Source: an uncultured virus (IMG/VR IMGVR_UViG_3300013383_000030) | Lineage: Duplodnaviria; Heunggongvirae; Uroviricota; Caudoviricetes | Reading direction: 5' to 3' (one strand) | Virus record (IMG/VR): IMGVR_UViG_3300013383_000030 | Length of the DNA stretch: 64,000 bases | Shown: one piece after another, positions 1 through 56,509 of the stretch | Layout of the letters: the number at the start of each line of letters is the position of its first letter | How positions within the stretch are numbered: the stretch's first letter is position 1 | Made by a program: the position numbers and the translations under genes | The notes under the pieces: generated by a model | Seen by the model: the letters and a program-made list of their open reading frames with translations, nothing else | Databases searched by the model: none | Told to the model about the DNA's origin: nothing

Positions 1-1416
1 CAGGACATAAACGACATCGACAAGCTGAATCTGGTTTACAGCAAACTCGACCACAAGCATAAGGCTGAAGACATAACCGATCTTGGAACAAAAGTCAAAG
101 ATATTACAAACAAAGACACAAATTTGTCTAAAAGTGGACACAAGCACAAGACGTCAGACATAACGGATTTCAAAACAGAAGTCGACAATATCTCCAAGAA
201 ATACGATGGTGAAGGGAAATACGTAAAACAAGCAAAATATCTATCCTAGACGAATGACAACACAGTAGGCTATGTTTATGTGAACCAGAATGGAACAGAC
301 AAGAAACTTTCTTTGACAAATATTGTATACACACCACCACAAAGCATAAATTCGTTGAATGTATATTTGTCACCATCTGGAAACGATACAGATGCCGCAA
401 ATTATATAACAACAGGTGGAACAAATGGAGATGCGGTTCGGAAACAACATCCATACAAGACATTAACTACTGCAATTCGGGACATGTCAAAAATCAGATC
501 CGACAGATCTGGATTTGTGTTTCGTCTGAACGTCGCGGCTGGAACGTATGTACTTCCAACCTCTGGATGTACTATTGCACATCCAGATTGTTCGCAGCCT
601 TCTGGGAATTATTTTGAGATTGTTGGACCATCCGGAACCACAAACACTGCAGTGATAGATGTGAAGAATGTAGTGTGTCCTGGTGGCACGGTGGAAAGCC
701 ATGTCAAATACACCGGTAAAAGTTGCGTTAACGTTCTCTGCAACACGAGGTTCTACAATATAAAAATAACAAATTCACTTTGTGGAAGTGTTCCATATTC
801 AAACCCAAAGTCCACCGGATGGGAATGGTTAGACAATACAAATGTAAGTGCCATTGGTGTTTCTAATGTCACTGTTTATCTGGTCAACGTAATGATTGAG
901 AATGTGTCAAGAATATATGCAGAAACAAATGCAACCGTCTTTGTGAATTCATTGACCTGCAAGAACATGAGTCGTGGCATTCATGGTAGCATGAATGCAA
1001 ATATATATTTGTATAAGGTGAGGTATGAAGGGGTATATCGAGGAATACACACCAATCTCGGTTCAAACCTTACGTTGTGGCTTGGGGTCAATCGTAGTGT
1101 TGACATAAGCGGTTATGTTACATACAAGTGGCTAACAATTTCAGAGAATGGGTCTGTTACATGCTCATACGCACTTGGTGGATCATATCCAACAAGAGAA
1201 TCTGTGCTGAAAGACAAGAACAGATTCATTTTCGACATTCACCTACAGGATCGTGAATTGGATGGAAAAAACGAACTCGCATATAGTATTGGCACGAAAA
1301 CTCAGACAATGAAAATAAATGGAACCTAGAGTACAGTTATACTAGATGATGGAGCAGTTTATGGAATTACAAGGGAATTGTTTGACAAGTACTTCGTCAT
1401 AACCGACGAGTCTTGA
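1..1416 (+). CDS. Tail fibre-like protein, 5'-partial, code 15 (TAG at 247 and 1327 read through)
   Basis: Frame 1 is open from base 1 with HKH..DITD repeats typical of fibres, followed by a beta-helix-like region. With TAG=Gln it ends at TGA 1414-1416, abutting the convergent gene at 1417. Confidence 0.6.
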
Positions 1417-1983
1417 TCATGGATTCTGATCAAGAGATTTGATGATATCCTCTTGAGAATATGCAGACGAACTTCCACTCATGTCAATAGTCTGGGAAAC
1501 CTGTTTTGATTCAAGTTTTTTCATGTCAAGTTCATGTTTGTACTTGATTTTCTCTATATCATGAGAATGTTTTATCTGTTCTAAACGAATTTTGTCGTAG
1601 AATGCAAGTCTGTCCTTGTAGAGGTTGATGTATTCTGCGACTGTAAGATGCGTCGCCTCAAGAAGCTTCGAGAGAGCCTGGAGAGCTTCCGGATCGACAA
1701 GTTCGGTTGACACAATCTGTTCATATGTGTGCCTTATTGTGTCCTTTGAGATGTTGATGAGATCGCGTATCTCCTTTAGACTCGATTGTATGTCGGCAAC
1801 ATTTACACACTGTACACCGTTCTCCTTGTACTCCTGAATCTAGGTGTCAATCTTGTCGGTGTTTTCCCTGACCTGTTCATCGATGTTGTCCAGTTGTGTG
1901 ATGTCGTCCTTCACGTCGAGATCCGAAAGAAATCCCTCGATACTGTCTATTCCAAGTGCTTCGTTGATTTTTTTTGTGCTCAT
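1417..1983 (-). CDS. Hypothetical helical protein, possibly a T4 gp16-like small terminase; one internal TAG
   Basis: ATG at 1983, 3 nt after the stop of the upstream gene; 188 aa with TAG=Gln. The segment IRDLINISKDTI...DPEALQALSKLL loosely resembles gp16. Confidence 0.4.
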
Positions 1984-1986
1984 TTC

Positions 1987-2859
1987 TCAAAACTCCGTGA
2001 ATCCGTCGTAGTCGTTTCCTTCGAACTGGTTGCCGAGGCTCTTCCGCATGCTGGAACCCGGGAGATCAGCCTCGAGGTTGATCATAGCCCTCTTCGTCAT
2101 CGCCCTCTTGATGTTCACCTGCTAGTAGTGCTTCGCGAGTATCGACTTGAAGGAGTTGAAGCAAGCTTGTGATATGTAGGCAAAGACATTGGTGAAGCGA
2201 AAAGAGAAGTTGAAGAGACCCCTTATTATCTTCTCGTACGAGTATGATTGGCAGTCCTGCTTCAACTCGAGTGGGTAGTTCCTGAAGTACGAGTGGTTCG
2301 AGATTTTCTGTGCTATTTGCATAATCATCATCCCGAATCTTTCACTTATCATCCTTCCGTTTACAGGATCCAGGGGTTCGTCGATGTCGAAGCACCACCC
2401 ATCGTTCCTGACTATGTGTGTAACATCTTCGACAATCCCCCTCTTGTCGTCCTTTATGATAATTGGGCGTTCCACATTTTTCACATTTGCCGCGTCATCC
2501 TTTCCGGTCTTTTTGATCTTTTCCTCTTGTTTGCGTATCCGTTCCTGCCACTCACTGAAACGGTTGTGTGTCTTCGGATATCTGACGTAGTATTTGACTC
2601 CTTCAACGTACTTCTCGTGGAGCTATATGGTGTCTGGATATATTCTTGTTCTTATGAGACTTCCCCTTTTGGTCATTTTCATGATTGGAAGACCGTTTGT
2701 TGACGAGTTTCTCCACTTGAACATCTCCTCGAGAAGGTTCTTGTTCGTGCAGTAGAACCTGGGATCCTTCGACTGCTCGATGACTTCCTGTGGTATTGTG
2801 AATTCGGGACAGTTCTTCTATTTGCCCTTTTGTTTTCTGTTGTTTTCGTCCTGGAACAT
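1987..2859 (-). CDS. T4 gp55-like late-transcription sigma factor, code 15 (3 internal TAG)
   Basis: N-terminal FYCTNKNLLEEMFKW and core ISERFGMMIMQIAQKISNHSYFRNY...NVFAYISQACFNSF match gp55 motifs. The two parts join only by reading TAG at 2818, 2623 and 2122 as sense. Confidence 0.75.
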
Positions 2860-2930
2860 AATTTGTGAAACGGTATAATACTCTTTTAGAGTATTCTACT
2901 GTTCTATGTACAGTTAATGGCACAAAAACC

Positions 2931-2937: not shown

Positions 2938-2964
2938 TTCTTTGAAAATTATTTGGAAAACGTC

Positions 2965-4245
2965 ATGAAAACGCTAGATCTTAGGAAAATTATCGACGAG
3001 TCTCTTGAAAATATGGTCTGTGAGAGCGGAAACGATAGACCGAGACATCTTTACGAGGACTACAAGATGACATTCAATGAAATGAGGGGTATTTTTAAGG
3101 ATATATTCTCGGGGAAGACGAAGCTGACGGAGAAATGCGACGGTGCACACATCGAGGTGACTTACAGGGACGGCGGATTCCGTTTCGCGAAGAACAGGAG
3201 GCAGCTGAAGGATCCGCTGAAGCTCGAGAAGCTCGGCTCGTATTTCGATGGTAACCCGAAGGTGAAGGAGGCTTACGTCAACTCCGCGAACGACCTCGTG
3301 AAGGCACTGAACTCAATAGAGGCGACTGACCTCGAACGGCTTTTCCAAAACGGGAGGAAGTACGCCTCCTTCGATATCGTATACCCTCCGTGCAGGAACG
3401 TCCTCGACTACGGGAACAGGTGCTTCCTCCAGCTGAACGGCGTGAAGGAGTACGGCGATGGCTGTGAAATCGTATCTGAGGATGAGGGTTCGTCGAAGTG
3501 GCTCTACGAGACGCTGAAGAACCACAAGGCTCTGAAACAGGAGATGTTCGAGATATCCGAACCAAACCTTCTCAGGATGCGCGACAGCGTGAGCGCAGAA
3601 AAGGCTCTAAAGGAGCTTATGGAGGACTTCGACCGCGTGATTGACGGATACTCCACGAAATGCACCATTTAGGACTACGCGAACGAGCGTCTCCGCAGGT
3701 GCATAATCAACGTCTGCAACCACAACGGCATAGAGGTTGACCGAGACTGCCAGTTCGTGAAAGAACTCGCTGACAGAATAGGAAACTTCTCCGGAAGGCG
3801 TCCGACGAAAAGCGACATATGCACTTTCGCAAAGCGTTGTGGCATTGACGTTCGCTCCGACAGCTACAGGAGGCTCATGGAGACACTCGACAGCCAACGG
3901 GACGCGATAAACGAGGAGGTCATGTGTCCGGTTGAGAACCTTGTCATGAAGGCCGGGACGCTTCTCTTCAGGAATCTAACTGGATTCATGAGCGCGGATC
4001 CCCAGAAGACCTCTCAGAAGCTCGCCACGGAGCTTGAGCACGCGATTTACGAGGTTGAGAAGGACAATTCGAGGCTCACGACCGACAAGCTGAAGATCTT
4101 CCGCCGTCACGTCAAGAAAATCGGGGACTGGAAGGAGAAGTGCTTCCCGACAGAGGGAATAGTTTTCCGCCACGGTCCGAAGGTCTACAGGATAACGGGG
4201 GGCTTCGGCTCAATTGGGCAGATTCTCAACATCCTGAAGCACTAA
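2965..4245 (+). CDS. Jumbo-phage protein with ligase/nucleotidyltransferase-like motifs (EKCDG...EGIVF...RITG); one internal TAG at 3670
   Basis: ORFs 2953-3672 and 3757-4245 are in frame across a single TAG. The KxDG and EGxV motifs lie on opposite sides of it. Confidence 0.55.
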
Positions 4246-4256
4246 GAGGGAGCAAA

Positions 4257-6788
4257 ATGCTTGAGGAATCTCTTGGTGAGGGTCTGAAGCTGGCGAAACA
4301 GGCTTCCGAGCAGTTTGAGAAGGATACCGTCGACGGGATAAGGAAGTTCCTTGACGGTTAGGTCGGCGATTATGGGAAACTTGAGGTCGAGCACTACGAG
4401 GGAAGCGACCGGAAGTACCATTCGGACATACGAATCCTGAACCCGGCAACCGGCAAGGAGGTCTGGATTGAGGCCAAGAAGAACAAGTACGCAAACCTCG
4501 GCTCTGTCAGTTTTAAGTTTACGGACTGCGGGTGGAGGTGTACGACACTTGACAATGACGATCCGCTCACCTCGATGTTTCTTGACGCGCTGAAGGACAA
4601 CTCGAAGGATTTCATCGCGTTCTGCAGGAAGTTTCTCGGCAAGTACGACATTTCACTCCCGAAAGAGCTGACGAAGGAGCTGGTTGACGCATGGAGGGCT
4701 TCGGGTGGGGTCGATGACACGGACAACGACACGCAGTTCATCACAAACAAGATTCCGCTCGAGCAGTTTGGATTCAAGATAGCGGAGTTCTACAAGTTCT
4801 CGAAGAACGAGCAGGTCTATTACATCCAGGTGGGAGACAACCTCTACATAATCGACCCAAACTACAACCCCCTGAACCTCGCATGCAGGAACGGGGAGCC
4901 TCTGAAACCACTTTCCGAGGTCTACAGGAGGGGAAGGATACAGTTCCGCATGAAGGGGCAGGAGAAGGCTTCCGGTGGGACCGTAAAGCACTACTATTCG
5001 ATTTTTTGCGACGTCAAGATATTGGCAGACAAGGACAACATGAACGAAAACTACAAATGCTCATTCCTACAACCAGAGAAATATCCAGTTGTTGAAAATG
5101 GAGAGAACATATCAGCAATGGCGGAAATCCTCGAGGCAATTGATAGGATCATGTCTGAGAACCTTACGATTCCGGAGAATCCGGACGACAAGGTGGAGAA
5201 GGAACTCAGGAGGAAGCTTGACAAGAACTACGACCACGCGGACAGGATAATCAGGTGGTACAGGGCTGACAAGAAGGCTGGAACCGACGAAAAGGAACTT
5301 AAGCGGATGTATGTCAGTAACCTTGACAATATAAAAGACCTTCTGAAGACATACGACGAGTATATTGGAAAGCTGAAAAAGCTCAAGATGCATTCAAAGC
5401 CGGTAGAGATAGAGACAGACAAAGGAAGGAAAATCCAGTTTGATCCAGTGAAGGATTTCGACAAGATAAGGAGACTTTCGGGTGCGAGGAAGCTTATATC
5501 TGCGCTTGGTAACATTGCACATTCAGATGCGACAATCGACGTCGATGACCAGAAGTACGCGATAACTGACAAGGACAGGAAAAACATAAAGATCGTCGCG
5601 TTCACGGAACACGTCGTCTGCTGGCAGACACAGGGATACGAAACGACGAACAAGCTCGTATATCAGCTCTGGAGAAACCCAAACACAATTGGACGTGGCG
5701 ACGTATATGGGGATCCGGACGAGCAGACTCCGTACTGCACACATTCAAGGAACCATTGGGATGAGTATGCCGAAGAGTATGGGGACGACTATAAGCAATT
5801 CTGGTATCTTATAAGAATGGATAATGGAAATGTTGCAAAAATGTCGGCTCTAAACAAGATGTCGTCCGAAAAATATACAAACGAAAGAAAAAATCCTGAC
5901 ATCGTAAATCGGGAAATGGAGTTGAAGAAGAGCGCGAAGTACATTATTGGCGATTTGACGAACCCCGAAGTTTCGAGAACCTTCAACCTCATGTCGTATT
6001 CCGGTCCCTATACAATCATCGCCATGAATGATTCGGGCAATGACTTTCTTGACAAATATGACAATGAGTTCTATAGTTTTTCACATCTTCAGTATGGAGA
6101 TGAAGTCAAGAAAATCGACGATCTGCTTGATGACGAAGCGAGCAAGTCTGCAGAACAGTATGTACTGGACGAGTTTGTCGATGCACACGGAACGGTGTTT
6201 ATCGATGATGATTTCATTTCCAATATGGATAAAAATGGTTTCACTGGCATCATGTGCAGATTTCCGAAAGCGGTTAAGGAGATTGTTCCAGCCTCAAACG
6301 ACTCAGCCAAGATATTTAGAAGAATGACGAAACTGAGGGTGCTTCCACCTGTGAATTTGAGAGAGTGCACCAAAGCAGATCGTATGTTTCAAGGGCTTGA
6401 GAATCTCGAGGAAACACCGTAGTTCACGGAGACCGAAAATATCGGTAGCGCAACATTCATGTTCTGTGATTGCGACAATCTTCGCACAGTGAATGACCTT
6501 GAATTTAAGAACTGCTTAGACCTTCGCGGCATGTTCCATAATTGCCAAAGTCTTGAGGCTGTTGGAAGAATAGTTGCTCCACGGGCGACGTCCATTAGGG
6601 AAATGTTCTATGGATGTGGAAGTTTATGGCATGTTGATGACATTGTCGTGTCCCCTAGATTGACTGTCGTTGGGTTTGGCGGTATTAATGCCAGAGTCGA
6701 TGACCACACAGAGGAACTATTTGACAGAATAATCGAGAAAGCGAAAAATGAGAGATATGAACGAGCCAAGCAAGAGGGAGTTCACTGA
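4257..6788 (+). CDS. Multidomain protein of 843 aa: N-terminal PD-(D/E)XK nuclease-like domain, C-terminal BspA/DUF285-like leucine-rich repeats; 2 internal TAG
   Basis: Continuous frame with TAG at 4359 and 6420 read through. Motifs SDIRI...VWIEAKK and repeated MF..C.NL / MFHNCQSL / MFYGCGSL. Confidence 0.55.
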
Positions 6789-8149: not shown

Positions 8150-8560
8150 TTAAATAAAACTGTATTTAAACAATAGTTTTTGACTATAGAATTTACTGAA
8201 AACTGCGTTATGGACATAATCCTGAAGCAGAAACCGATATTTCACTTTCGATTTTTTGATTTCCTGAAAAGCTGATTTCCAAGTGTCAAATCCAGATAGT
8301 GTTTGCTTCCATAGCTCATCTATTCTTTCATCTTTGATATTTGGATAAAACCAACTTTTCTCAAATTTTCTGTATCCTCTTCTTGCTATTTCAATACTAG
8401 CTGCTACCATATCTGGAGTGTTTTCATTCCCATACATGATGTTTCCAATGAATGAGCTATAGCAAGGATTGACTTCAACTAAACTGAAATTACATAAAAG
8501 ACTTAAACTTTTCAATTTATTGACAAACAAATTTCTATTCCATACATTATTGCATAATAG
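8150..8560 (-). pseudogene. tnpB: 3' fragment of an IS607 tnpB
   Basis: Near-identical to the last ~400 nt of tnpB 48523-49821 (NKLKSLSLLCNFSLVEVNPCYSSFIGN...). Confidence 0.85.
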
Positions 8561-8690: not shown

Positions 8691-11093
8691 ATGGAATCAA
8701 ATGAGAAAGAGACTTATGCCGATAAAACAAAAAGAAGAAAGAAATTTCTCAGGCTTTTTGGTGGACGGTTTGCTATAGTGAACCAAGAGCATAAGTTCAT
8801 TCGTCGGGTCAGGAGGGGGAGGAAGACAGTTGCATATACATGGACGGACGATGTTTCAGAGACTATTCCATTTAAGACAAACGACATGGCTAACGGCTTC
8901 ATAACTATGTTTGGCAATCTTCCACTCTTTGGCAACAAGAACGGAACGGTTCTTTAGTCTGAACATGTTCGCATTGTCAAGATATACAGGGATCCTGAAT
9001 TAAACGAATCTGGATTTAAGGCCGATTCGTCAATTTTCGAGACTTGTCTGAATGAAATCGACGGTGATATTGGTGGTGACGAGTCTGAAATTGGAGATGA
9101 AATAGAGACCGGAAGGAAAATTTGGATTGACGACATCCGCGAAGCTCCGGAAGGATACATTTGGATAAAAACAGTAAAGGGTTTCATAGACTACTGTGTT
9201 GCGAATGGTCTTGATGAGATAGAATTGATAGACACGGATCACGATGCCGGTGAATATCAGAAGGACGGCGGTGACTACATCCGGTGTTTCGACTACCTTG
9301 ATTACTGTGGAATTCCAGACATCACGGTACATATCCACAGCGCAAATCCTGTTGGTGCGAACAACATACGTAGGATAATATCCAGAAATTCCGAGAACGG
9401 GTGGAAGGAAATACGGAACACGAACGAGGGTGTCCCAACAGACGGCAGGGCGGACGAAGGCACCATTCCACGCGAGGACGTCGAGAGATTCGTTGATGAT
9501 ACTGCGAATGAAATCGTCGGGGTCCTCGGAGAGTCTGGTAATGATGTAGACGTTGCGCAAATCAAGGATGAAATGTATGGGTTCATGTCAAAAGTGAACA
9601 CAAAGGATGAGCTTCGGGATTTCATGCGTGAGTACCAGGCAAAAGTCGACAAGTACTGTTCGGAAAATCCAAATTCTAAGACGTGTGTATTCCTGAGGAA
9701 GACGTGGGAGATGCTGAAGAAGATTGCGAAAGTTGGTGCATTTGTCGCACAGAATCTCCAAACAATCCTTGTTCTTCTTGCTACAGTATATGTCTGCGTA
9801 AAGTTCCATGTCGGACCGATTCGTGCAATCCAACTCGCATTCCAGGCTACGAAAACGATATATTCGGCCGCAAAGACGACGCTTGACACAACGACACGAT
9901 CTGTCGAGATATATAAAGACGTTTAGAACAGATCGGCTGAAATAGGCGACAGGGTTGGTGAGATTATCGGAAAGGGGATCGGGTGGTATGACACACTGAA
10001 GGGAAAAGTGTTCGGTTCATCGGGGAAGTCGAGGAAATACAATGAGACACAAGTTCTCGAAGACACCACCCCACTGGACATAACGGAGTCAATCCACTTC
10101 AACTTCAACGACGATAACATCGCGAAAGCAGATATTAGGATGATAGCCTACAGTGTTCATGTCGATGAGGACGATGACACAAGGGCGTATAATCCAAAGA
10201 ACAATCCCGACAAGGCCATTGACATAATTTTCGACTATCCACAGAACAACCTGAAGATTGAGCTTTTTCTCGATACGGAGAGTGGGGAATGGGATTCGTG
10301 GGTTAACGGAAACACCGGAAAAATCTCCCCGGAACAATATTCTGACTTTTTCCGTACGGCATTCTACAGAAGGCTCAGGGACAAGCTTAAATCGACATGG
10401 GCGAACACAGATCCCGTGTTTGCAAGACTTCTTGGTGCAATAGACAACAAGAAGTACAAAATAGATGGATGGGACAGACCAAGTGTGGACGCCAACAGGG
10501 TCGAAGAGGATTCGAAATTCGGAACCGGGAAGGCGGACATCGAGAAATCAAGGGAGAAAAATGCCGCTGGAAAGCAGATTAGAACCAGGAGTGGGCGGAA
10601 ATATATCAACCCAAGTGATTTCTCCGTGAAGCATGATGACAACGAAAAATACTACTGTTGGCCAGATCAGAGGGGGAAGGGTGTCTACAAGTTCGCCAAT
10701 TGGAGGAACTGGAAGAACATACGCCCCCTGTGCCGAATGAGGTTCGCAATGTCAAACCCGGACCACGTTTACGGGATCTCGATTTCCCCCCTTCCCGACG
10801 CCAATGAGAATCGCGGATTCCGTGCGTATGATCTGACAGCACAGCCTCCGCTCCAGTACCTTACACCAGAAGAGACCGCCATGATAATGGATCTTACAAT
10901 AGTACGGAAATTCCTGAAGAACGCAAGGGAGAGGATTGAGAGGTATCTTAGTGAGCCGGACGAGGAAATTTACAGGAAGATAAACAATCCGTCGAAATGT
11001 ACTCTCGATGATATAAGGCAGACAAAGAAGGCTATTAAGAACGCACTTGATGCGATCAAGAACTTCCGTGCAGATACCTACATTTATACTTGA
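8691..11093 (+). CDS. 800-aa multidomain protein containing a cyclic-phosphate-processing receiver-like domain; 2 internal TAG
   Basis: Three listed ORFs join in frame across TAG 8955 and 9924. Motif KIWIDDIREAPEG...DTDHDAG...IHSANPVG. Confidence 0.6.
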
Positions 11094-37574: not shown

Positions 37575-37577
37575 CTA

Positions 37578-44165: not shown

Positions 44166-44255
44166 TTTCTGTATATTATAGCATTTCGAATCGGGAAGTC
44201 AAATACACTTTCAAAGAACGCGGAATTGTATGTAAATCCATAAATAGAATAAACT

Positions 44256-45497: not shown

Positions 45498-45533
45498 TTG
45501 TTTTTATTTACTTTATTTTATTTACTCTATTTA

Positions 45534-46148
45534 TTATTTACATCCAAATTCATTTTTGATGTCGTTTTCAATTTTTTTTAATTTATTTCTTCTTTTTCCA
45601 TAGAATTTCATTGAAAAATGATGAATAATTGAAATCAAATCATCAGTTAATTCTTGTTCAAATGTTTTTTCATCTGTCAAATTGACTTCGATAATTTCAC
45701 AATTATATCTTTCAAACAATGATTTCAAATATCCAAAACCAAATCTTGTCAAACGATCTCTATTTGAAATGATGACCTTGCAAATATTTCCTGTTATCAC
45801 TTCAGAAATAAGTGCATTTAGGCCTTTTCTATTTTCATTCATTCCAGATGCAATATCTGAAAATATCAAATTTTCTGATAATTTGTTTCCATTTGAAACT
45901 ACATATTCTCTAAGAAACTTAATCTAGTTTTCAAGATCTTTCTTTTGTTTTGTAGTTGAAACTCTTGAATATATTGCAATTTTAGGTTCAGAAGTAGATA
46001 TAAAACTTTTTGGAAGTTTATATAGATATTTTTTGTCTGAGATTTGTTTAGTTTCAATTCTTCCTGTTATTCTCATCTGATAAAGGCATTGAGATGTAAT
46101 TTGAAGAATATCTCTTATTTTTTTGCTTGAATACCAATTTTCTAACAT
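45534..46148 (-). CDS. tnpA: IS607 serine-recombinase transposase, 1 internal TAG
   Basis: YSRVSTTKQKKDLEN(Q)I...SDIASG...DRLTRFGF; the TAG sits at a conserved Gln. Confidence 0.9.
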
Positions 46149-47828
46149 ATATATTATTTACTTTATTCTATTTACACTATTTATAAATACATTCGGGCGG
46201 TTCTACGGCGAAATCGTCAAAGACATAAGTTCTCATGGACAAAACCGAGTTGAATGTCATGTCTGTTCCATGGCAGTCGGTGATAATCCATGGGGTAAGT
46301 GTTTTTGCTGTTTTTTGGGATTTTTGTAATTTGATTTCTGTTGGAAGCAGAATAACGCTCAAATCATCTAACTCGACATTTTAGATTTCGTTGTTGAAAT
46401 GTACTGGTGTGAAACCAAGAAGCGAAAGGTTGAGTATCTGTTCCGGAATGGTTTTGAATTTCTTGAGTGTTTCCGTATAGTCGTTTTTGCATTCTTTGTC
46501 CAGAATGACGGCATCCGAATCCAGATCAAGGGAGAAATTTTTGAAATGGAGCATATTCAGAATCCCTAAGAACTTTTATAGCCATATCATTGTGTTGAAT
46601 ATATACACAAAATTCGCAAGATAGATGCCATGTCTTCAGCGTGGCATAGAGTTCACTAGTCTGAGTAGCAGTTCTAAGATAACGGGTTGGATCTTCAGAA
46701 GTTGATTAGCTGCGTAGGTTTCATCGCATTTTTGGTTTCGGTTCCATGAATTCGGCTCTGTTGGATTCATGTCCACTATAACACGAAAACTGGGGAAATT
46801 CCAAAGAAAACACGGAAAATGCTGAAGGTATATGTGATGTTTGGCCTATATTCCTGGCTTCTCTGTAGGATTGCGGCGACGGAAGGTGTCAGAGTTCCCC
46901 TTTGTGTTCTCAGGACTGTCAATATTTCGTTTGAAGTCATATGCCAAGAGATTCACATGAAAATGGCATGGGGTTCACACCGTGAATGAAAACGAGAACG
47001 AATCATACTTGTTAACGCCTCTCCCGTTGATGGTGAGGTATCCGATGCAGTAGAAGTCGTCTTTCGGGTGTATTCCTGCCACGAAATGCCGGTGCTGAGG
47101 TGTCAGGGATCGGAGAAAATACGCGACTGCATGATGTTCTGGTGAATTCATTGTTCTTCAGAGTGTGAAGGATATGCTGACTTCGCCCGGATTTGGATAT
47201 AGGTAGAAGTTGATGTACCCTTTGGTGATTCCTGGCGTCTTACTCGGGAAGTTCCTGTTCGTGACTAGTCTTGACCTGATGAAATACATGAAACGTCTTG
47301 TTTTCTGGAGGTGTATGTGTTCAGATGACAAGGGAGATTGAAATGCCGGGATGTGGATATTGGTTCTGTTGGTTGTTTTTTGTCTGGTTTTCGTCTAGTA
47401 TGTATATATTCCAGAATATCGATATGTTCTCGATTTCCAGATCGTTTGGGTATTCCGGTCTACCCATGTCTTTTGTTTTCGATCTTCCGAAATACGTGAT
47501 TGACTGTTTTATCTTATCTGGCATGTTCAAGATTATAACAGAAAGCATCCGAAAGTCAAGTATTTTTTGGATTTTTATCAAATCTGTCAAGCGCTGAAGA
47601 CGGCTGTGTTTCCTGGATGGAACATTATGGGAGATTTGGGGTTGTCATGTTTATTGCTTTTGGGGTGGATGAATTTGTGTACAGGAAAAGGTTAGGTGGA
47701 AATGTCCAAGATTCAGACTCGGACGATAGATATAGTGAAGATGAAAGACATGATAATTGGTTGAAAATGTGTTATACAACTTTCATATAAAGTTATATGA
47801 TTTAATAAAAATAATGTAAATAGAATAT

Positions 47829-48446
47829 ATGAAAGCAAAAGAAGTATTAAAACTTTTAGGAATTACACAGTAGACATTATGGAATTGGTCTAAATCTGGG
47901 AAAATCAAAGTAGTTTCAAAATTATCACGTACATACAATGAATATGATAATGATTCTGTTTATGCATTAATTGGACAAAAATCTAAAAAGAAAAATAGAT
48001 TAGTAATTTCATATGCTAGAGTATCAACTTAGAAACAAAAGAAACAATTAGATGAATAGAATCAACGAATCTATGATTCGTGTATTTCAAGAGGATTGAA
48101 ACTAGATAAACAATTTTCTGACATAAAATCTGGAATGTCAAGTGATAGAAAAGATTTTCAAGAGATTTTAAGATTGATAATTCAAGGAGAAGTTGAATTG
48201 TTGATAATTGAAAACAAAGACAGATTAGTTAGATTTGGATATGAGATTCTTGAATAGATATTTAAATACTTTGGAACGAAGATTTTAGTATTGAATGACA
48301 TTCTTGAAAACAAAACGTATGAACAAGAATTGACAGAAGATTTGATTTCTATAATCCATTATTTCACAATGAAAAATTATTCTCATAGGAGAAAATTAAA
48401 TAAATTAAGGAAAGAATTAGAAAATAATAATGAGAAAAGTAAATAA
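47829..48446 (+). CDS. tnpA: IS607 transposase, 4 internal TAG (absent from the ORF track)
   Basis: MKAKEVLKLLGITQ(Q)TL...YARVST(Q)KQKKQLDE(Q)...SDIKSG...KDRLVRFGY. Confidence 0.9.
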
Positions 48447-48522
48447 TAATATAAATTTAATAAAAAATAATATAAAAATAAGTAAATAAATATATCAAAA
48501 CTATTTTTTTGTAAATACGATC

Positions 48523-49821
48523 ATGACAACGCTTAAATTGAAATTAGAAAATGAAATAGATATTCTGAAAGAACAGAAAGTTTTCAGCAATATTGTTCGT
48601 CTTTCATTTAATCGTTTTCAGGATGGTTTAAAAGAAAAAGATATTAGAACTTTTTTAAAAGATAAATTTGAAGGTTGGAATTCATGGTTTATTCAATGTG
48701 GAATAAAAGTAGGACAACAACTGTTTCAGAAACACAAAGATAAACATATTGTTTTTGGCGGAAAACATAATCTGAAACAATACTTGAAGAAGTTTATTTC
48801 TAAAGAACAATTCAAAGAAAAAAGACTGTTTCCTATAAATATTCAAGGAGAAAAACTTTATAAAGGAAATAGACTATTTGATTTTTATTTTGATGAAAAT
48901 GAAATTGTTTTCAAACTATCAAGAGAAGACCATAGAATTCTAAAATTCAAAACTCCTCATAAGAAAATCAGAAACAATTTAACAAGACTTCAAGAACTAG
49001 TCGACAATAAACAAATAACAATAACAGTCTCTTTGACAAAAGAAAACATTTATTTGACTTTTGATGAAACAAAGATAACTGATTGCAATTTTAAAAACCT
49101 AAAGACAAATAGAGTTCTTGGAATTGACATGAATCCTAACTATATTGGTATGTCTGTCTTGGAATTTGATGAAAACAATGAATTTAAAGTACTTGAAAAG
49201 AAAGTTTTTGATTTGTCAAAATTGACAGTCAAGTCAGGAAAATCTAGTTCAGACAAGAAATCAAAATATCTTGTAAACAAACTTAGATTTGAAACCATCC
49301 AAATAGCACATGATATAGCTAATCTTGTTGATTATTGGAAATGTGACAAGGTAGTTATTGAAGATTTGTCAATAAGAACTTCAGATAAAGGTCATGGAAG
49401 ATTTTTCAATAGATTATGCAATAATGTATGGAATAGAAATTTGTTTATCAATAAACTGAAAAGTTTAAGTCTTTTATGTAATTTCAGTTTAGTTGAAGTC
49501 AATCCTTGCTATAGCTCATTCATTGGAAACATCATGTATGGAAACAAGACTACTCCAGACATGGTTGCTTCATCAATAGAAATAGCAAGAAGAGGATACA
49601 GAAAGTTTGAGAAAAGTTGGTTCTATCCAAATATCAAAGATGAAAGAATAGATGAGCAATGGAAGCAAACACTATCTGGATTTGATAACTGGAAATCAGC
49701 ATTTCAGGAAATCAAAAAATCGAAAGTGAAATATCGATTTCTGCTTTAGGATTATGTCCAAAATGCAGTTTTCAGCAAGTTTTATAAAAATAAAAATACA
49801 GGTTTATATCGATTTGTATAA
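48523..49821 (+). CDS. tnpB: IS607-associated TnpB-like protein, 1 internal TAG at 49747
   Basis: GIDMNP, VIEDL, YSSFIGN...PDMVASSIEIARR. Confidence 0.85.
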
Positions 49822-50905
49822 TATTTTATGAAATTTGTATTTTATTTCAACCAATTATCATATTTTATAAATGCCCAAAAAGTGTCAAAAAATGTACAAA
49901 ACTTCTATGAAGCTGGTAATCACTGAAGATAATTGCCATTCCGACTTACGTGAGCATTGACAGAATTTTCTCTAACAAGAAATCCTGGTCAGATGAATAT
50001 TTTGTTGCAAGCATTAGAAATGTCAACTAGAAAACTATTCAAAAATATATTGAAGATTAGGGAAATGAATAATTATACCGATTCATGACAACCTCTGAAG
50101 ATGGTTGCCCTTTCTCAGCAAACATAATTTTAAATGATACAATATTTCATTGTGGTTGTGGATATGAATTTGATAGAGATGTTCGTTTGGCAAATGCCGT
50201 GTCTTCAATGTGACATAGAGTTTACATTCTTGGTATGGATTTCTGGGAAATTAAAGGGTGAACGAGATTGAAAACACATGGTTTTGTGTTGAGTAAAGAC
50301 TAGAATAGGTGATGTTTGGGTATTGGTTGTTGCTAAATGGCATAATAACAGACAACGATTTCATCACCTGCTTCATTGGAGATCTCAGCATATATATCAC
50401 CCATTTCGATGCATTCGGGTGGTTAGTTTGGTTTAAATTTGCAATCACAATGACTTTCGCCCGCAGTATTGCATTTTAGATGGAGAATGAGACATGAAAA
50501 GGTTCGTCGAGTCACGACAGAACTGCGTTGAATGGAAACAAACAACGGTTCTTCGGTTCCACATTGAATATGCAAATCATGAAAATTTTCACGTCATTTG
50601 ATCTCGACATCAATTTTCATAGTATTCATCTCCATTGGTTGTTCAATTCACTTAAATTTCGACTAAATAAACACGTCCAATGATCAGAAATCCATATTTA
50701 TCTTCAAATTCAAAGTTTCCACCTGAAAACGAATTATTGTTTTCATCAATAAATAGAGTTTCATTAATTCATCTCCGACAAGAAAACTATTTTGTGTCAA
50801 TTAAATACAATACGTTTCAAAACAATATGATTCATTAAACCAAAATATATTTCTCTTTTTAAGATATTCTACAGCTTTATTATATGTGATGTTTTCACTT
50901 TTGTG

Positions 50906-51724
50906 TCATAAACCGGACACATTTTCAAAGGGCTGTTTTTCCATTGTGTGTTCGCCACAAACCACACTGTCGCCAAAAATCTTTCCTTGGTGTTTGAGAT
51001 CGACAAGCTTACATGCTTCCGGATTTCCAAAGTTCAGCGGGATGTCAAAAAGAAACTTTCCGTCCGCTGATTTCTTAAAGTCATCTAGTATATTTTTCAA
51101 TATGACGTAATGCTGGTTGTCCAGTCTAAAATCGGTGGCGTGTGAAGTTTGTTTGTATTTTTCGGATAAACTTTCGAACATGGATACAGTGGCTTTTATC
51201 TTGCTGACAGCTATCTTTGTGATTTTCTTGTTGTATTTTTCAGGAGCGTGGCAGAACACAATAACAAGTTTTTCACACTCAAGGTATTGTGTTTCAAACA
51301 TAATCAAATCTTCGTATGCGGCGTGGTTGTTCTTCAATGCGGAAAAATTTGAGAGAAGGTGTCCAAGGAGGTTGCTAGCTTCGACGACTTCAATGTCTTC
51401 AGATATCTCCGCAAAAGCCAATTCCATATCCTTGAGTTCGCGTTCGGTTTTCTCGCGATCGGGGATTATGATTATGTCGCTTTCCAACGACAATCCTGAT
51501 AGGATTCTGGAGGCGTCAAAGAGCATGCGTTTGGCGTTTTCAATATTCTTCTGGACTTCGGACACCTTTCTAAGCTTCTCACCGGACTCTCTTTTCAGCT
51601 TCTTGTTGTATTTCACGATCAAGTCCAGGTATTCGATCGCCGCGTCGTCCACATATTCGACGTCAATGTCCTTGAACCACTTCATGTTGGAAAAGAAATA
51701 TTTCTCGTTCAGTTTTACTTTCAT
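50906..51724 (-). CDS. Hypothetical protein
   Basis: ORF behind a sigma70 promoter; a class C remnant abuts the ATG. Confidence 0.55.
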   Translation of the reverse strand: MKVKLNEKYFFSNMKWFKDIDVEYVDDAAIEYLDLIVKYNKKLKRESGEKLRKVSEVQKNIENAKRMLFDASRILSGLSLESDIIIIPDREKTERELKDMELAFAEISEDIEVVEASNLLGHLLSNFSALKNNHAAYEDLIMFETQYLECEKLVIVFCHAPEKYNKKITKIAVSKIKATVSMFESLSEKYKQTSHATDFRLDNQHYVILKNILDDFKKSADGKFLFDIPLNFGNPEACKLVDLKHQGKIFGDSVVCGEHTMEKQPFENVSGL

Positions 51725-51827
51725 AATTTTCAACCGAGGAATCGGCTTTCTCCTTTTGCGCATATTATAGCACCCGAAATACAAAAGTCAAGGTGTTTTT
51801 TGAAGAAAGCTGTGAACATATTGTGTA

Positions 51828-51876
51828 GTCAACTACGCACCGATCTTCAGTCGGTGCGTTTCCTCGGCTGAAACTT
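51828..51876 (-). repeat. 49-bp IS605-end mini-element, class C (guide GAAA, target TCAT). Others: 62576-62624, 37977-38028, 51725-51747, ~60573-60621
   Basis: TCAT|aattttcaaccgagGAAAcgcagccatcttcagtcggtgcgtagtTGAC; shares caaccgaggaa with the left end at 6794. Confidence 0.85.
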
Positions 51877-52185
51877 ATGAATATTTTCATAAGTTTTAAA
51901 TTGCTTCTAATTTTTCTTAGTTCTCCATTTTTATCAGTTTTTTATATTTTAAATCAATAGCCGATTTTTTGGTTGGTGTTGGAATCATCCTGAACAATAT
52001 ATGTGAGAATGTATAAGGCAGAGTCATATTTGTTGCACCGGTCACCGTCCAGCGGTCCCATGCACACCACATCTTCGGTTTCTCAGCCCTTGAACTCATC
52101 CTTTATTGGACATTCGTTTTCGGAGCCTTCGACCACAAATTGGCATTCTCCGCCTGTTGCTTCACAATATGGTTTTTCTGATCCA

Positions 52186-52791
52186 TCAAGTGTTTTCTTG
52201 TATTTGCATCCCATTTTTATCCATCCTTTCGTCTTGGAAGGTTTTTTCATATACTATTACCTGTTCTTTCCTCATTTCGGAAATCGGAACAAGAAGGTCG
52301 ACTATTCCTTCATTATAGATGTGGTTTATTTTGTAATGTACTTTCTTCGATTCCACCATTTCCCTCCACTTTGGCATGTCAACCACAATCATGCTGGAGA
52401 TACTTGTGCAATCCATGTCCGAGAGAAAGAAAACTATATAGTCAGCCTTAGTGAGATGGCTCCATCCACGAAACCGGTTGTGGGAAATTATCTCAAACGG
52501 TATATTTCCTGTTGTGGATGCTCGTGTATCAACCTTCACCTCGTATTTTCTGATGTCCTTATCCCTAAGAATCCTGGAAAGATCTATGTTCTCAAGATCG
52601 AGAATTTTCGGAGAAATCAGGAAATCTATGTCGACATCCTGGAATTCGGGTGTTTCTGATACGTCTATTAGATCCATGCGCCTTTTTTTGGCATATGGGG
52701 CGAACACCTTGGTGAACATCCTCTCACCAAACTTTCCGTATCTTTTAATGTCATTGTGAAAGTTGGGTTTTCTTGTCGTCTCAAATGGCAT
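52186..52791 (-). CDS. PD-(D/E)XK endonuclease-like protein
   Basis: GKFGE...QDVDIDFL...YEVKVD; overlaps the 3' end of the methylase gene. Confidence 0.6.
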   Translation of the reverse strand: MPFETTRKPNFHNDIKRYGKFGERMFTKVFAPYAKKRRMDLIDVSETPEFQDVDIDFLISPKILDLENIDLSRILRDKDIRKYEVKVDTRASTTGNIPFEIISHNRFRGWSHLTKADYIVFFLSDMDCTSISSMIVVDMPKWREMVESKKVHYKINHIYNEGIVDLLVPISEMRKEQVIVYEKTFQDERMDKNGMQIQENT

Positions 52792-53981: not shown

Positions 53982-54336
53982 TCATCTCCTCTATCAACTC
54001 GAGGGTTCTCTTGAAATTCTTCGTGTTCGTGTCGTCAAGCTTGAAAGCCCGCGTCCCGACGCTGTTTACGTCGAACTCGTCATGGGATTTGTTCCAGACA
54101 ATCGTGGCTATCAAGCAGCGGCATTCCTGTACGGCGAAACACGAAGCCGATATTGTGGTGTTTCCTTTGGTAAGCGATCCGTCCGTGTTTTCCGAATAGC
54201 CGTCCTTTAACATCGATTCCTTTTTCCCGAAATACTTGTTCGGATACAACAAGACGATTTCCTCGTATGTTCCGGTACCGTTTGGGCGTTTGGATTCGCA
54301 GTACTCTATGTTTCCGATTCTGATTCTCGCGGGCAT
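53965..54336 (-). CDS. Hypothetical protein
   Basis: ORF packed in the operon. Confidence 0.55.
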   Translation of the reverse strand: MPARIRIGNIEYCESKRPNGTGTYEEIVLLYPNKYFGKKESMLKDGYSENTDGSLTKGNTTISASCFAVQECRCLIATIVWNKSHDEFDVNSVGTRAFKLDDTNTKNFKRTLELIEEMNAREA

Positions 54337-54337
54337 G

Positions 54338-54745
54338 TCAGTTCCACATCTTCGAGTTTTTGTACTCGTCAGAATTCATGGTGTATTCCAGGGCACAGTC
54401 TGCCTTGAATATGTTGAGCGCCTTGTACAGGGCGGACTTCGCGACCTTTTTGGATTCGCACGACTGGTAAGCCCAGCACGCAATTCCCTTCACGATGTCG
54501 GGAAGATCGAGTTCTGCGTGGTCGAGATCGTATTCGCCAATGTCATCATTAGACCACGGTTTGTTACAGTATCTGGCATTAAGCGATTTCAGGTTGGCTT
54601 TCCGAAGCGCAACAAAGAGGTCTTCGGGACCGTTGATGTCTTCTGCTTCAAATGCTTGTTGAAGCGAGGTGTTGTATTTCCCGCGCTTGAAGATCTCATA
54701 TGCGAGACTTGACAGATTTTTTTTGTTCATCAGAAACGCCGACAT
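54338..54745 (-). CDS. Hypothetical protein
   Basis: AAAGGA RBS; N..SLNARY and YQSCE motifs. Confidence 0.6.
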   Translation of the reverse strand: MSAFLMNKKNLSSLAYEIFKRGKYNTSLQQAFEAEDINGPEDLFVALRKANLKSLNARYCNKPWSNDDIGEYDLDHAELDLPDIVKGIACWAYQSCESKKVAKSALYKALNIFKADCALEYTMNSDEYKNSKMWN

Positions 54746-54880
54746 GTGATTTCCTTTCTTTTGCGTATATTATAACATATGGATTTTGTTTGTCAAGTTG
54801 TTTTTTGACTGGATTGTGACCCCCCCCACGCCACACCAACAACCTTGCATTTCTCTTGTAAATACGAATATCGCGAAAGG

Positions 54881-56509
54881 ATGAACCCTATGACAACGGG
54901 AGTGCCAAAACTTTTAAAAAAAGAAACCAGTGAATTGGATTTAAACCAGGAAGTCGTATACGATATCGAAAACTTTAAAAAACTATTGGACAAAACCATG
55001 GTGTTTTCGAATTTGGAAGATGCGAAAACATATGCAAAAGGAAAAGAAACCAATGGCGAACAGCTCGTTGATTCTTCCCGTGTTGGTTAGATTTTGACTG
55101 TATATGAAAATGACATTGTCAAATCATATGTCATTGATGCTAATAGAGAGCTTGATGAAATAATTTTGTCTGATAATGGAATAGTTGAAATCAATGGTGT
55201 TTTGAATGCAACTCCAAATGGTCATTCTAACATATATTCTAAAAATGGTTCATCAATTGGCAAAGCATTCTTCAATGAGGTCAATGGAAAGACTGGTATT
55301 GTCAAAAATACTATTGGAAGTAAAGGTTTCCATGCAATTGGACTGAAAGTAGAAAAAGTAAACAATACTGATACTCTTAAAATCAAGTTAGATGGTGACT
55401 TAACCGAACTGAAGACTTTGGTTAAAAGTGAAAGTTATAAAGAAAACACAGGAAAATATTGGTTCAATCTTTATCTAGGATCGACAAACAATCATCGGTT
55501 TGGATATATAACTGATATTGATGATGACAATTGGGCTACTATAAACAGAAATTATTTTGGTGAAAATGAATGGAAATCTTTAAAAGATGTAACTGAAGAA
55601 ACATTCAGATCTTGGTTTGATTCAGATTTGACTCTTCAGAACATGAATGCATTGTTCTTTATCAATTATCCAACACTTGGGAATACTGTTGTCAATGTAG
55701 GAACATCAAATGCAATTGGAGTTGGTTGCAGTGCATCTGGACCTGGAGCTTTAGCTACTGGATATGTGACTAGAGCAAGTGGAATTGGAGCACATGCAGA
55801 AGGCGCTCAAACCACAGCAGTTGGAAGTGCACATGCAGAAGGTGTTGGCAGTGCAGCAATGTCAAATAATTCACATGCCGAAGGATATTACACTCAAGCA
55901 AAAGGATATTTTTCACATTCAGAAGGTGGAATGACAAAAGCACTAGCTAAAGCTTCGCATACTGAAGGATGGAATACTGTAGCAAATGAGGGTGCAGTAC
56001 ATTCATTTGTTGGTGGTTGCGATAATACAACCAATGGAGACACATCATTCACATTTGGTTATCAATTATATAATAATGCTAAACATACTATGTTATTTGG
56101 TGGTGAAGCATATGTTGGAAACATAGAAAGATCATTTGTATTTGCTCCAGTTTATCAAGGAAAAAATGAAAATGGTGCATATTTAGTCAGTAAACATGGT
56201 ATTAATCCTACAAGTGATGCTGAAATAAAGAAACTAAGCTATGCATTTATCGTTAATTCTAATAAACATGATGGTCTAGATTCAATTGTTGTTAGATCTA
56301 CTGTTGATGGTAAAGCCGTATTCAAGACATTAAAAGAGTATATAGATGAAAATTACATCAACAAGTCATTGTTCGATTCGATTTCGTCCGACAAGAAATT
56401 CAGTGCCGATGCCAAAGCAGACCTGACCACCAACGAAGGTAAAACAGACGCACTAAAACAAATTCTATTGTTGCTTGGAATGAAAGAATCAAACATCAAA
56501 ACACTTTAA
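54881..56509 (+). CDS. Tail fibre/adhesin-like protein with S/AHAEG (YadA-head-like) repeats; 1 internal TAG
   Basis: Joined across TAG 55088; AHAEG/SHAEG/SHSEG/SHTEG repeats; GTAAATA upstream. Confidence 0.7.

What the first reader, a model, noticed from the sequence alone, without database searches (positions are those of the whole stretch)
1..56509. TAG is recoded to Gln, with internal CAG/TAG evidence
Seen: at least 15 genes join only across TAG, including terminase, neck, gp3 and gp55. The tnpB codon at 49747 is TAG where sister copies (8222-8224 minus strand, 27565) have CAG in LL-Q-DYV. TAGs in tnpA fall at Gln-typical positions. Known: code-15 phages exist. No CTA suppressor tRNA or release factor is in this window.
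Basis: partly seen in the sequence, partly recalled or inferred. Interest (0 to 1): 0.7.

Follow-up and report, generated by a model that had tools for sequence, protein, structure and literature searches.

The report
Jumbo phage reads TAG as glutamine
This stretch belongs to a large T4-like phage that uses the stop codon TAG as a glutamine codon in its late, virion and transposon genes, a kind of recoding already described for gut phages, although the tRNA that would read TAG was not found in the 74 kb of this phage that could be examined.

Summary
Reading TAG as sense gives 39 in-frame TAGs in 21 of 55 curated ORFs. Four are set aside: two lie upstream of likely starts and two in a tnpB remnant. 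That leaves 35 TAGs in 18 ORFs. Eleven ORFs have independent evidence that the protein continues across TAG. All 53 whole ORFs end in TGA (41) or TAA (12).

Gln is the best reading. In 27 TAG columns aligned to two relative contigs, Q is the commonest partner (12 of 27). It beats Glu by about 31 log-likelihood units. In IS607 TnpA, TAG sits at a column that is Q in 120 of 120 homologues.

TAG makes up 12 of 99 Gln-type codons in virion/late genes. It makes up 0 of 93 in replication, transcription and translation genes.

No tRNA-CUA, release factor or GlnRS lies in the window or in 10 kb beyond it. A relative carries tRNA-CUA at a syntenic locus that is full of IS elements here.

This is a new member of a known kind: code-15 gut and jumbo phages. 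The scan has already noted 80 such findings on other DNA.

The late sigma factor gp55 itself carries TAGs in all three relatives examined, which hints at a gate.

The parts
1..1416 (+). Tail-fibre-like ORF, open at the 5' end. TAGs at 247 and 1327.
   Evidence: ORF continuity only. No Pfam or PHROG hit. No orthologue in G001 or G002.
1417..1983 (-). Unknown 188-aa ORF. TAG at 1842.
   Evidence: Continuity only.
1987..2859 (-). gp55-like late sigma factor. TAGs at 2820 (codon 14), 2625 (codon 79) and 2124 (codon 246).
   Evidence: PHROG 234 at 4e-14. T4 gp55 (PDB 7d7c) aligns to residues 155-249, with a weak match at 30-58. In G002 the matching positions are TAG, Q and K. The only in-frame ATG/GTG/TTG or TAG codons in the first 50 are ATG1, TAG14 and ATG46; codons 19-45 differ from G002 by 8 synonymous and 1 non-synonymous change.
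2953..4245 (+). Unknown ORF. TAG at 3670.
   Evidence: The orthologue in L022 (91% identical) has CAG there.
4140..6788 (+). Unknown ORF with a DUF285-like C-terminus; likely start at ATG 4257. TAGs at 4359 and 6420.
   Evidence: In L022, 4359 is TAG and 6420 is GAG; 879 of 882 aa aligned.
8691..11093 (+). ORF with a cREC_REC domain. TAGs at 8955 and 9924.
   Evidence: Pfam PF20274 at 6.6e-15. 8955 aligns to GCC in L022; 9924 was not aligned.
13324..14142 (+). Unknown ORF. The TAG at 14014 sits at the end of the conserved part.
   Evidence: L022 also has TAG there, followed by short tails that are poorly conserved. It may be an ancestral stop.
14901..16148 (-). Unknown acidic ORF with five TAGs: 16055, 15815, 15575, 15512 and 15476.
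   Evidence: L022 partners are CAG, AAG, CAG, CAA and GAG (minus-strand coordinates corrected).
17761..18288 (+). Unknown ORF. TAG at 18280 is followed by GTT TAA TGA.
   Evidence: The G001 orthologue ends with TGA exactly where the window has TAG.
18346..19191 (-). Neck / head-tail adaptor. TAG at 19071.
   Evidence: PHROG 211 at 2.6e-16, covering residues 32-271. G001 has CAG there (92% identical).
23801..25801 (-). Large terminase. TAGs at 25087, 24490 and 24073.
   Evidence: T4 gp17 PDB chains align to residues 26-507 in one stretch. G001 partners are AAG, CAG and ATG.
TAGs at 26273 and 26186.
   Evidence: PHROG 45 at 4e-11 and Pfam PF06841 at 8.8e-6. L022 has CAG at both sites (89% identical). 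No PDB sequence match.
35484..36629 (-). Unknown ORF; the only gene in the 27.9-41 kb block that carries a TAG (35834).
   Evidence: The orthologue alignment (211 of 381 aa) did not cover the site.
27949..40961 (-). Block of 12 curated minus-strand ORFs carrying a single TAG (35834). The eight named ones are IF3, phosphoesterase, RNA ligase, DUF2201, AAA ATPase, Dam, sigma-70-like and NusA-like.
   Evidence: Pfam. 0 of 93 Gln-type codons are TAG in the replication/transcription/translation class.
44256..46148 (-). IS607-type pair: tnpB 44256-45497 (TAGs at 45383, 45212, 44753) and serine-recombinase tnpA 45534-46148 (TAG at 45926).
   Evidence: Pfam. The tnpA TAG column is Q in 120 of 120 homologues. 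GC is 25-28%.
47829..49821 (+). Second IS607-type pair: tnpA 47829-48446 (TAGs at 47871, 48030, 48057, 48255) and a tnpB-like ORF 48523-49821 (TAG at 49747).
8150..8530 (-). Truncated copy of the tnpB-like 3' end, with CAG at 8222-8224. A second remnant lies at 27549-27663 (+) with CAG at 27565.
54845..56509 (+). Fibre-like ORF. TAG at 55088.
   Evidence: PHROG 25468. An independent assembly, L021, is 100% identical over 53927-64000. A weak G002 paralogue carries one TAG.
56742..59851 (-). tRNA cluster: Ser-TGA, Gly-TCC, Thr-TGT, Arg-TCT and Ala-TGC, plus three weaker ARAGORN calls. None has a CTA anticodon.
41971..52247 (.). Interval syntenic to the relative's tRNA-CUA locus. Here it holds IS607/IS605 copies and remnants and no tRNA.
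   Evidence: Flank matches. Alignment of 51780-52100 with the G001 tRNA region. Rfam at E<=1.

Best explanation
The window is part of a large T4-like phage. Its relatives suggest a genome of about 270 kb. In this phage TAG is a glutamine codon (NCBI code 15) and genes end only in TGA or TAA.

TAG codons arose mostly by CAG-to-TAG transitions. They are tolerated in genes that are translated once a UAG-reading tRNA is available: virion genes, the late sigma factor gp55, many unknown ORFs of the left arm, and resident IS607 transposon genes. Genes for replication, transcription and translation carry none, so they can be read under the host's standard code early in infection.

Shown here: TAG is read through, the homologous residue is Gln, use is partitioned by gene class, and a relative carries a tRNA-CUA. 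Inferred: the decoder in this phage is such a tRNA encoded outside the 74 kb seen, a glutaminyl-charging system charges it, and the partition acts as a timing device.
For: - TAG count: 35 in-frame TAGs in 18 ORFs after exclusions. 41 of 53 ORFs end in TGA and 12 in TAA; among the 33 TAG-free ORFs, 29 end in TGA, 4 in TAA and none in TAG.
- Single proteins run across TAG: TerL against T4 gp17, gp55 against PDB 7d7c, and orthologues with sense codons at TAG sites.
- Amino acid: window TAGs pair with Q 9, K 3, E 2, A 1, M 1 (16 columns). Relatives' TAGs pair with Q 3, E 3, K, N, G, D, R (11 columns). Log-likelihood is Q -56.4, E -87.1, K -90.5.
- CAG was the partner in 4 of the 4 TAG columns lying in orthologue alignments at least 89% identical.
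- TnpA TAG columns are Q in 61, 117, 120, 88 and 120 of 120 homologues. The column that is Q in 120 of 120 is also Q in 3 of 5 PDB IS607 TnpAs as HMMER aligned them.
- In relative L028, TAG replaces the Q of the T-Q-A-C-F-N motif that T4 gp55 shares.
- Partition: 12 of 99 Gln-type codons against 0 of 93, Fisher p 3.6e-4.
- Relative G001 has a tRNA with anticodon CTA (Rfam 45 bits). Its nearest match in the phage collection is a CTA-anticodon tRNA annotated tRNA-Gln in a crAss-like phage.
- TAG is conserved as TAG at 4359 and 14014; the TAG near gp55 codon 14 has a counterpart at codon 17 in G002. An independent assembly is 100% identical over 10 kb.
Against: - No tRNA-CUA, release factor or GlnRS was found in the window, in 10 kb past its right end, or at the site syntenic to the relative's tRNA-CUA.
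- The 184.6-kb relative contig G002 has no tRNA hit at all. G001 has no RF-1 or GlnRS family hit.
- 15 of the 27 aligned columns are not Q.
- The protein database holds the window's own TnpA at full length. Some of the 'Q' letters in close homologues may therefore themselves be code-15 translations of TAG.
- Two TAGs (18280, 14014) sit where the conserved protein ends and may still act as stops.
- No peptide or expression data were examined.
Confidence: 0.9

Rival explanations
1. TAG is a sense codon but stands for another residue, with Glu or Lys the most plausible. This would happen if the decoder were built on a different tRNA scaffold.
For: E and K are the next most frequent partners: E in 5 and K in 4 of 27 columns. 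TnpA residue 143 is E in 4 of 5 PDB homologues. By my own hand reading, not a tool result, the relative's tRNA-CUA has U11-A24, U13-G22 and a 4-nt variable loop; from memory these recall E. coli tRNA-Glu. Earlier scan notes report Glu- and Leu-type amber suppressors in other phages.
Against: The likelihood favours Q by about 31 units over E and 34 over K. TAG sits at columns that are Q in 120 and 117 of 120 homologues and at the motif Q of gp55 in relative L028. No TAG was seen at an invariant E or K column.
Confidence: 0.05
2. This phage encodes no decoder of its own. It relies on a host, or a co-infecting relative, that already reads UAG.
For: No tRNA-CUA lies in 74 kb, including the syntenic locus. 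In the relatives the only tRNAs lie in the part that corresponds to this window.
Against: About 200 kb of the presumed genome is unseen. The 0-of-93 TAG count in early-type genes fits a host that stops at TAG. Borges et al. (bioRxiv 10.1101/2021.08.26.457843, section 6, read) detected TAG suppressor tRNAs in only 40% of TAG-recoded genomes, so a miss is common.
Confidence: 0.1
3. The TAGs are damage or artefact: pseudogenes, assembly errors, or genes truly split into pieces.
For: Some IS copies are remnants (8150-8530, 27549-27663, 42261-42713).
Against: Only TAG interrupts frames; there is no in-frame TAA or TGA (an assertion in the script checked this on the 49 ORFs it grouped). Essential genes such as TerL, neck, tube and gp55 are affected. 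TAGs are conserved in relatives. An independent assembly is identical.
Confidence: 0.01

Closest known systems
Alternatively coded (TAG-to-Gln, code 15) gut phages of Borges et al., bioRxiv 10.1101/2021.08.26.457843 (abstract and section 6 read; term search of the text)
   Same: In-frame TAG in terminase and structural genes. TAG aligns best with Gln. Suppressor tRNAs are present in only some genomes. The model is a standard-code early phase followed by a recoded late phase.
   Different: I could not place this phage in one of their named clades, because their sequences were not on hand. Recoding here is sparse, about 4 TAG per 1000 codons in late genes. The words 'sigma' and 'transposase' do not occur in that text, so TAGs in a late sigma factor and in IS607 genes are not discussed there.
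Code-15 jumbo phages of animal and human guts, PMC13037316 (passages read)
   Same: Large genome. TAG recoding is concentrated in hallmark genes. tRNA-CTA is found in part of the genomes, and RF2 in some.
   Different: That survey calls recoding from a gain of at least 10% in coding density. My naive cover rose only from 0.830 to 0.871 for TAG, and rose as much or more for TGA and TAA, so this phage might escape such a screen.
phAss-1 group, PMC10607447 (abstract and section 2.1 read)
   Same: TAG in 28% of ORFs, including TerL. Gln was inferred from alignments. tRNA-Sup-CTA is present and no dedicated synthetase was found.
   Different: phAss-1 is 136 kb and has three suppressor tRNAs in the genome. 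Here none is seen in 74 kb. No similarity to phAss-1 was tested.
crAss-like phages with code 15, confirmed by metaproteomics, PMC9523058 (search listing and start of abstract only)
   Same: The same reassignment. The relative's tRNA-CUA is 77% identical over 64 nt to the CTA-anticodon 'tRNA-Gln' of crAss-like phage cr53_1.
   Different: A different phage order. This phage has T4-type TerL, gp55, clamp loader and RNase H.

Membership tests
Code-15 (TAG = Gln) recoded phage | In-frame TAG inside conserved essential genes whose homology continues across the codon | tested here: met
   TerL, gp55, neck and tube. 11 ORFs in all have independent support.
Code-15 (TAG = Gln) recoded phage | TAG columns align with Gln in homologues | tested here: met
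   12 of 27 columns are Q, which is the maximum-likelihood residue. TnpA columns are Q in up to 120 of 120 homologues. Sense Q codons are read from DNA at 10 of 13 cells.
Code-15 (TAG = Gln) recoded phage | TAG is not used as a terminator | tested here: met
   0 of the 33 TAG-free ORFs end in TAG (29 TGA, 4 TAA). Two TAGs (18280, 14014) sit at the ends of conserved regions and remain ambiguous.
Code-15 (TAG = Gln) recoded phage | Phage-encoded suppressor tRNA with anticodon CUA | tested here: not met
   Absent from the window and from 10 kb beyond it. Present in relative G001. Published surveys find it in only 40-60% of such genomes, so it is common but not strictly defining.
Code-15 (TAG = Gln) recoded phage | Accessory factors (RF2, GlnRS) | tested here: not met
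   No hit among the 100 window ORFs scanned, nor in G001. These are optional in the literature.
Code-15 (TAG = Gln) recoded phage | Peptides with Gln at TAG sites | not testable with these tools
   No proteomic data.
Late-gene-biased recoding (Borges model) | Recoded codons enriched in structural/late genes and absent from early-type genes | tested here: met
   12 of 99 against 0 of 93 Gln-type codons, Fisher p 3.6e-4. Gene timing is inferred from function and was not measured. No lysis gene was identified.
T4-like phage (gene content) | gp17-type TerL, gp55 late sigma, gp44-type clamp loader, RNase H | tested here: met
   TerL is about 31% identical to T4-like phages. No phylogeny was made.
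Pyrrolysine decoding of TAG | pylS/pylBCD genes | tested here: not met
   No aminoacyl-tRNA-synthetase family hit among the 100 window ORFs scanned at E<=1e-3. ARAGORN's label 'tRNA-Pyl' only reflects the CTA anticodon.

The most novel reading that the evidence does not exclude
UAG decoding may act upstream of late transcription as well as on late proteins. The gp55 late sigma factor starts with a short variable leader that ends in TAG, at codon 14 here and codon 17 in relative G002. The window has no ATG, GTG or TTG between that TAG and the conserved body, which evolves under purifying selection (8 synonymous to 1 non-synonymous change). gp55 carries in-frame TAGs in all three related phages examined. 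The suppressor would then license the whole late programme. Resident IS607 transposases, 11% of whose Gln-type codons are TAG, would be locked to the same window of time. This phage has also lost the tRNA-CUA from the locus where its relative keeps it.
Probability: 0.3. Interest if true: 0.55.

Novelty: new member of a known kind. Interest (0 to 1): 0.3.

Why it matters
Annotating this phage with the standard code would break its terminase, neck, tail tube, late sigma factor and about a dozen other genes. The case also shows that sparse recoding can escape coding-density screens. It offers a tidy system for asking whether a suppressor tRNA times the late programme, because the late sigma factor itself needs TAG to be read. 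Finally, transposon genes inside the phage have taken on the phage's code, which bears on how genetic codes confine mobile elements.

Tried and rejected
- Coding density as a test. Total ORF length and greedy non-overlapping cover rise for any stop codon read as sense: 0.830 under code 11, 0.871 for TAG, 0.892 for TGA and 0.881 for TAA. This is uninformative, so I replaced it with the length of the next same-frame segment after each stop.
- Six-frame comparison with the relative. It mixed real and shadow frames, so I redid it on curated frames only. That script reported minus-strand coordinates 3 too high, and I corrected them.
- The window's own genome is not held.
- The right-end pattern is absent from IMG/VR. 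It is present in one metagenome contig, whose whole record could not be searched.
- The exact anticodon-arm pattern of the relative's tRNA found only that same contig.
- No Rfam ribozyme lies beside that tRNA.
- The minimum-free-energy fold of the tRNA is not a cloverleaf. The tRNA call rests on Rfam and ARAGORN.
- No orthologue of the fibre ORF 1-1416 was found in the relatives.
- The tail-tube ORF has no PDB sequence match.
- Fetching 50 kb of NC_055889 added nothing beyond.
- Literature: searches found no paper linking gp55 or TnpA/TnpB genes to in-frame recoded stops. This covers only the held library.

Full report
**What the window is.** The 64 kb (44% GC) carries T4-type genes.
- A large terminase about 31% identical to those of T4-like phages. 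It aligns to T4 gp17 structures over residues 26-507.
- A gp55-type late sigma factor (PHROG 234, and PDB 7d7c chain F).
- A neck/adaptor protein and a gp19-family tail-tube-like protein.
- A ClpP-like prohead protease, a clamp loader and an RNase H-type exonuclease.
- Genes unusual for a phage: IF3, a NusA-like protein, a sigma-70-like protein and a TilS-like PP-loop enzyme beside a tRNA cluster.
- Several IS607/IS605-type tnpA and tnpB genes.

No genome is held for the window.

Two IMG/VR contigs from one metagenome are relatives.
- G001 is 81.6 kb, with a CheckV completeness of 44%.
- G002 is 184.6 kb, with a completeness of 69%.
- They are 67-90% identical in DNA to most of the window.
- Together they add up to about 266 kb, so the phage is probably a jumbo phage. 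That is an inference.

A metagenome contig (L021) is 100% identical to window 53927-64000 and extends 10 kb further.

**Checking the observation.** They lie in DNA repeats, two of which are remnants, so this pair is weak evidence on its own.

With TAG read as sense I curated 55 ORFs, of which 21 hold 39 in-frame TAGs.
- I set aside four TAGs: 12135 (inside a repeated hairpin upstream of ATG 12150), 17507 (upstream of ATG 17465), and 42279 and 42366 (in a tnpB remnant).
- That leaves 35 TAGs in 18 ORFs.
- All 53 whole ORFs end in TGA (41) or TAA (12).
- Among the 33 ORFs without any TAG, 29 end in TGA, 4 in TAA and none in TAG.

A test free of my gene calls agrees. After code-11 open segments of at least 100 codons, the next same-frame segment has a median of 50 codons after TAG (n=61), against 16.5 after TAA (n=30) and 20 after TGA (n=111). 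The Mann-Whitney p is 8e-5.

**Does the protein continue across TAG?**
- TerL aligns to T4 gp17 as one stretch across the TAGs at residues 239 and 438. The ATPase domain lies before the first TAG and the nuclease motif after the second.
- gp55 matches T4 gp55 on both sides of TAG79 and across TAG246.
- PHROG or Pfam envelopes span the TAGs of the neck protein, the tail tube (residue 181) and tnpB (residue 249).
- Orthologues in G001 and G002 run through 16 of the window's TAG sites and three more in gp55.
- In all, 11 ORFs have independent support. The other 7 rest on ORF continuity alone.

**Which amino acid?** I compared curated frames only, and 38 of the 44 ORFs compared had an orthologue.
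- The window's TAGs pair with Q 9, K 3, E 2, A 1, M 1.
- Three more window TAGs face TAG in the relative.
- The relatives' own TAGs pair with window Q 3, E 3, K, N, G, D, R.
- I dropped two columns: 17488, which lies upstream of a start, and 14017, which sits beside an indel.

I took substitution frequencies from the same alignments (10,525 residue pairs). On these, Gln has log-likelihood -56.4, Glu -87.1 and Lys -90.5. Seven of the 8 Q partners are CAG, one transition away from TAG. All 4 TAG columns that lie in orthologue alignments at least 89% identical face CAG.

The IS607 serine recombinases give separate support.
- The four TAG columns of tnpA 47829-48446 are Q in 61, 117, 120 and 88 of 120 database homologues. 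The TAG of tnpA 45534-46148 is Q in 120 of 120.
- Against five solved IS607 TnpAs the partners are N/S/N/S/H at residue 68 and E/E/E/E/A at residue 143. At residue 77 they are Q in three as HMMER aligned them, or in five if the gap is removed by eye.
- One caveat applies. The database lists the window's own TnpA at full length, so it holds code-15 translations, and some close 'Q' letters may be TAG.
- I therefore read the DNA directly. Four IMG/VR copies show sense Q codons at 10 of 13 cells. A bacterial copy shows N, S, Q, Q.
- One viral copy (L019) has TAGs of its own where the window has K, E and E.
- In a third relative (L028), TAG replaces the Q of the T-Q-A-C-F-N motif shared with T4 gp55.

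**Where TAG is used.**

| Gene class | TAG / Gln-type codons | Genes |
|---|---|---|
| Virion/late, identified by homology | 12 of 99 | 8 |
| Unknown ORFs of the left arm | 11 of 73 | 5 |
| IS genes | 9 of 82 | 6 |
| Other unknown ORFs | 2 of 65 | 17 |
| Replication, transcription, translation, modification | 0 of 93 | 13 |

Fisher p is 3.6e-4 for virion genes against the last class. Off-frame TAG is present in every class, at 4.8-14.5 per 1000 positions, so the absence is frame-specific. Gene timing is inferred from function and was not measured.

This pattern is the one proposed by Borges et al. (abstract and section 6 read).

**The decoder.**
- ARAGORN and Rfam find no CTA-anticodon tRNA in the window. 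This also holds at relaxed ARAGORN thresholds and in the 10 kb beyond the right end.
- None of the 100 ORFs scanned hit a release-factor or aminoacyl-tRNA-synthetase family.
- Relative G001 has a tRNA with anticodon CTA (Rfam 45 bits).
- By my reading of that sequence, it has an unpaired A1/A72, a G73 discriminator and an encoded CCA. Its minimum-free-energy fold is not a cloverleaf.
- Its nearest match among 50,697 phage records is a CTA-anticodon tRNA annotated tRNA-Gln in crAss-like phage cr53_1, 77% identical over 64 nt.
- The flanks of that locus correspond to window 41971 and 52247. In the window this interval holds IS607/IS605 copies and remnants and no tRNA. A conserved hairpin next to the tRNA site is kept at 51836-51860.
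- G002 has no tRNA hit. G001 has no RF-1 or GlnRS family hit.

The decoder of this phage is therefore unknown. About 200 kb of the presumed genome was not seen.

**Points of detail.**
- TAG 18280 aligns with the TGA stop of the G001 orthologue and is followed by GTT TAA TGA.
- TAG 14014 is TAG in L022 too, with short tails that are poorly conserved.
- These two may be old stop codons that are now read through to a nearby back-up stop.

**gp55 as a possible gate.** In the window's gp55 ORF, ATG1, TAG14 and ATG46 are the only in-frame ATG, GTG, TTG or TAG codons among the first 50. Codons 19-45 differ from G002 by 8 synonymous and 1 non-synonymous change, so they are translated. G002 keeps a TAG at codon 17 after a divergent leader. 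L028 has TAGs in a leader and one in the conserved body.

gp55 thus needs TAG to be read in all three phages examined, which suggests that UAG decoding licenses late transcription. Non-canonical starts were not excluded, and L028 has an internal ATG after its leader TAGs.

**Comparison with what is known.**
- TAG-to-Gln recoding with late-gene bias and patchy suppressor tRNAs is established for gut phages (Borges et al.).
- It has been described for a 136-kb group (PMC10607447, section 2.1 read).
- It has been described for jumbo phages of rumen, pig and human gut (PMC13037316, passages read).
- It has been confirmed by metaproteomics in crAss-like phages (PMC9523058, listing only).
- The scan's own index holds 80 notes of this kind in at least 62 genomes.

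This window is a new member of that kind.

Three things did not turn up in the library searches or in the Borges text: TAGs in the late sigma factor, TAGs in resident IS607 genes, and loss of the tRNA-CUA from a syntenic site. These are leads and remain unestablished.

Noticed in passing
window 8623-60669 (16 sites, e.g. 11168-11191, 12112-12135, 58270-58293): A hairpin family, GATRCC..GTYTTYAG..GRCAT, has 16 copies against 0 expected by chance. It is absent from the fetched parts of relatives G001 and G002. One copy ends the tnpB gene 57059-58261, and a 137-nt repeat (23661, 42624, 58172) joins the tnpB 3' end to the hairpin. It looks like a transposon right end or guide-RNA module that has spread as miniature copies.
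   Followed up: partly
L001 about 1600-2350 (relative G001 TerL): The relative's terminase carries an intein-like insertion in the ATPase domain that the window's TerL lacks.
   Followed up: no
window about 16900-25800: This segment is inverted relative to the gene order in G001 and G002. In the relatives the tail-tube gene follows directly after the orthologue of 14901-16148.
   Followed up: no
window 27949-28530, 38390-39196, 39678-40961, 58628-59419: The phage encodes IF3, a sigma-70-like factor, a NusA-like protein and a TilS-like PP-loop enzyme next to tRNA-Met(CAT) genes. This is a sizeable translation and transcription takeover kit.
   Followed up: no
window 6843-8108 versus 44256-49821: The IS copies have very different base composition. 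tnpB 6843-8108 is 64% GC and has no TAG. The IS607 pairs are 25-28% GC and carry 9 TAGs, in a phage that is 44% GC overall. This suggests separate origins and different lengths of residence in a recoded genome.
   Followed up: partly
window 51836-51860 and L008 1441-1464: A conserved hairpin, ACGCACCGATCTTCAGTCGGTGCGT, lies next to the relative's tRNA-CUA. It is kept in the window although the tRNA is gone. Similar short matches occur at 60592-60621 and 62591-62624.
   Followed up: no
window 16510-16697: An 80-nt tandem duplication (98% identical) inside the tail-fibre gene 16284-17465 gives a repeated VPVSRKVNGKALSSDIALVASDVGA segment.
   Followed up: no
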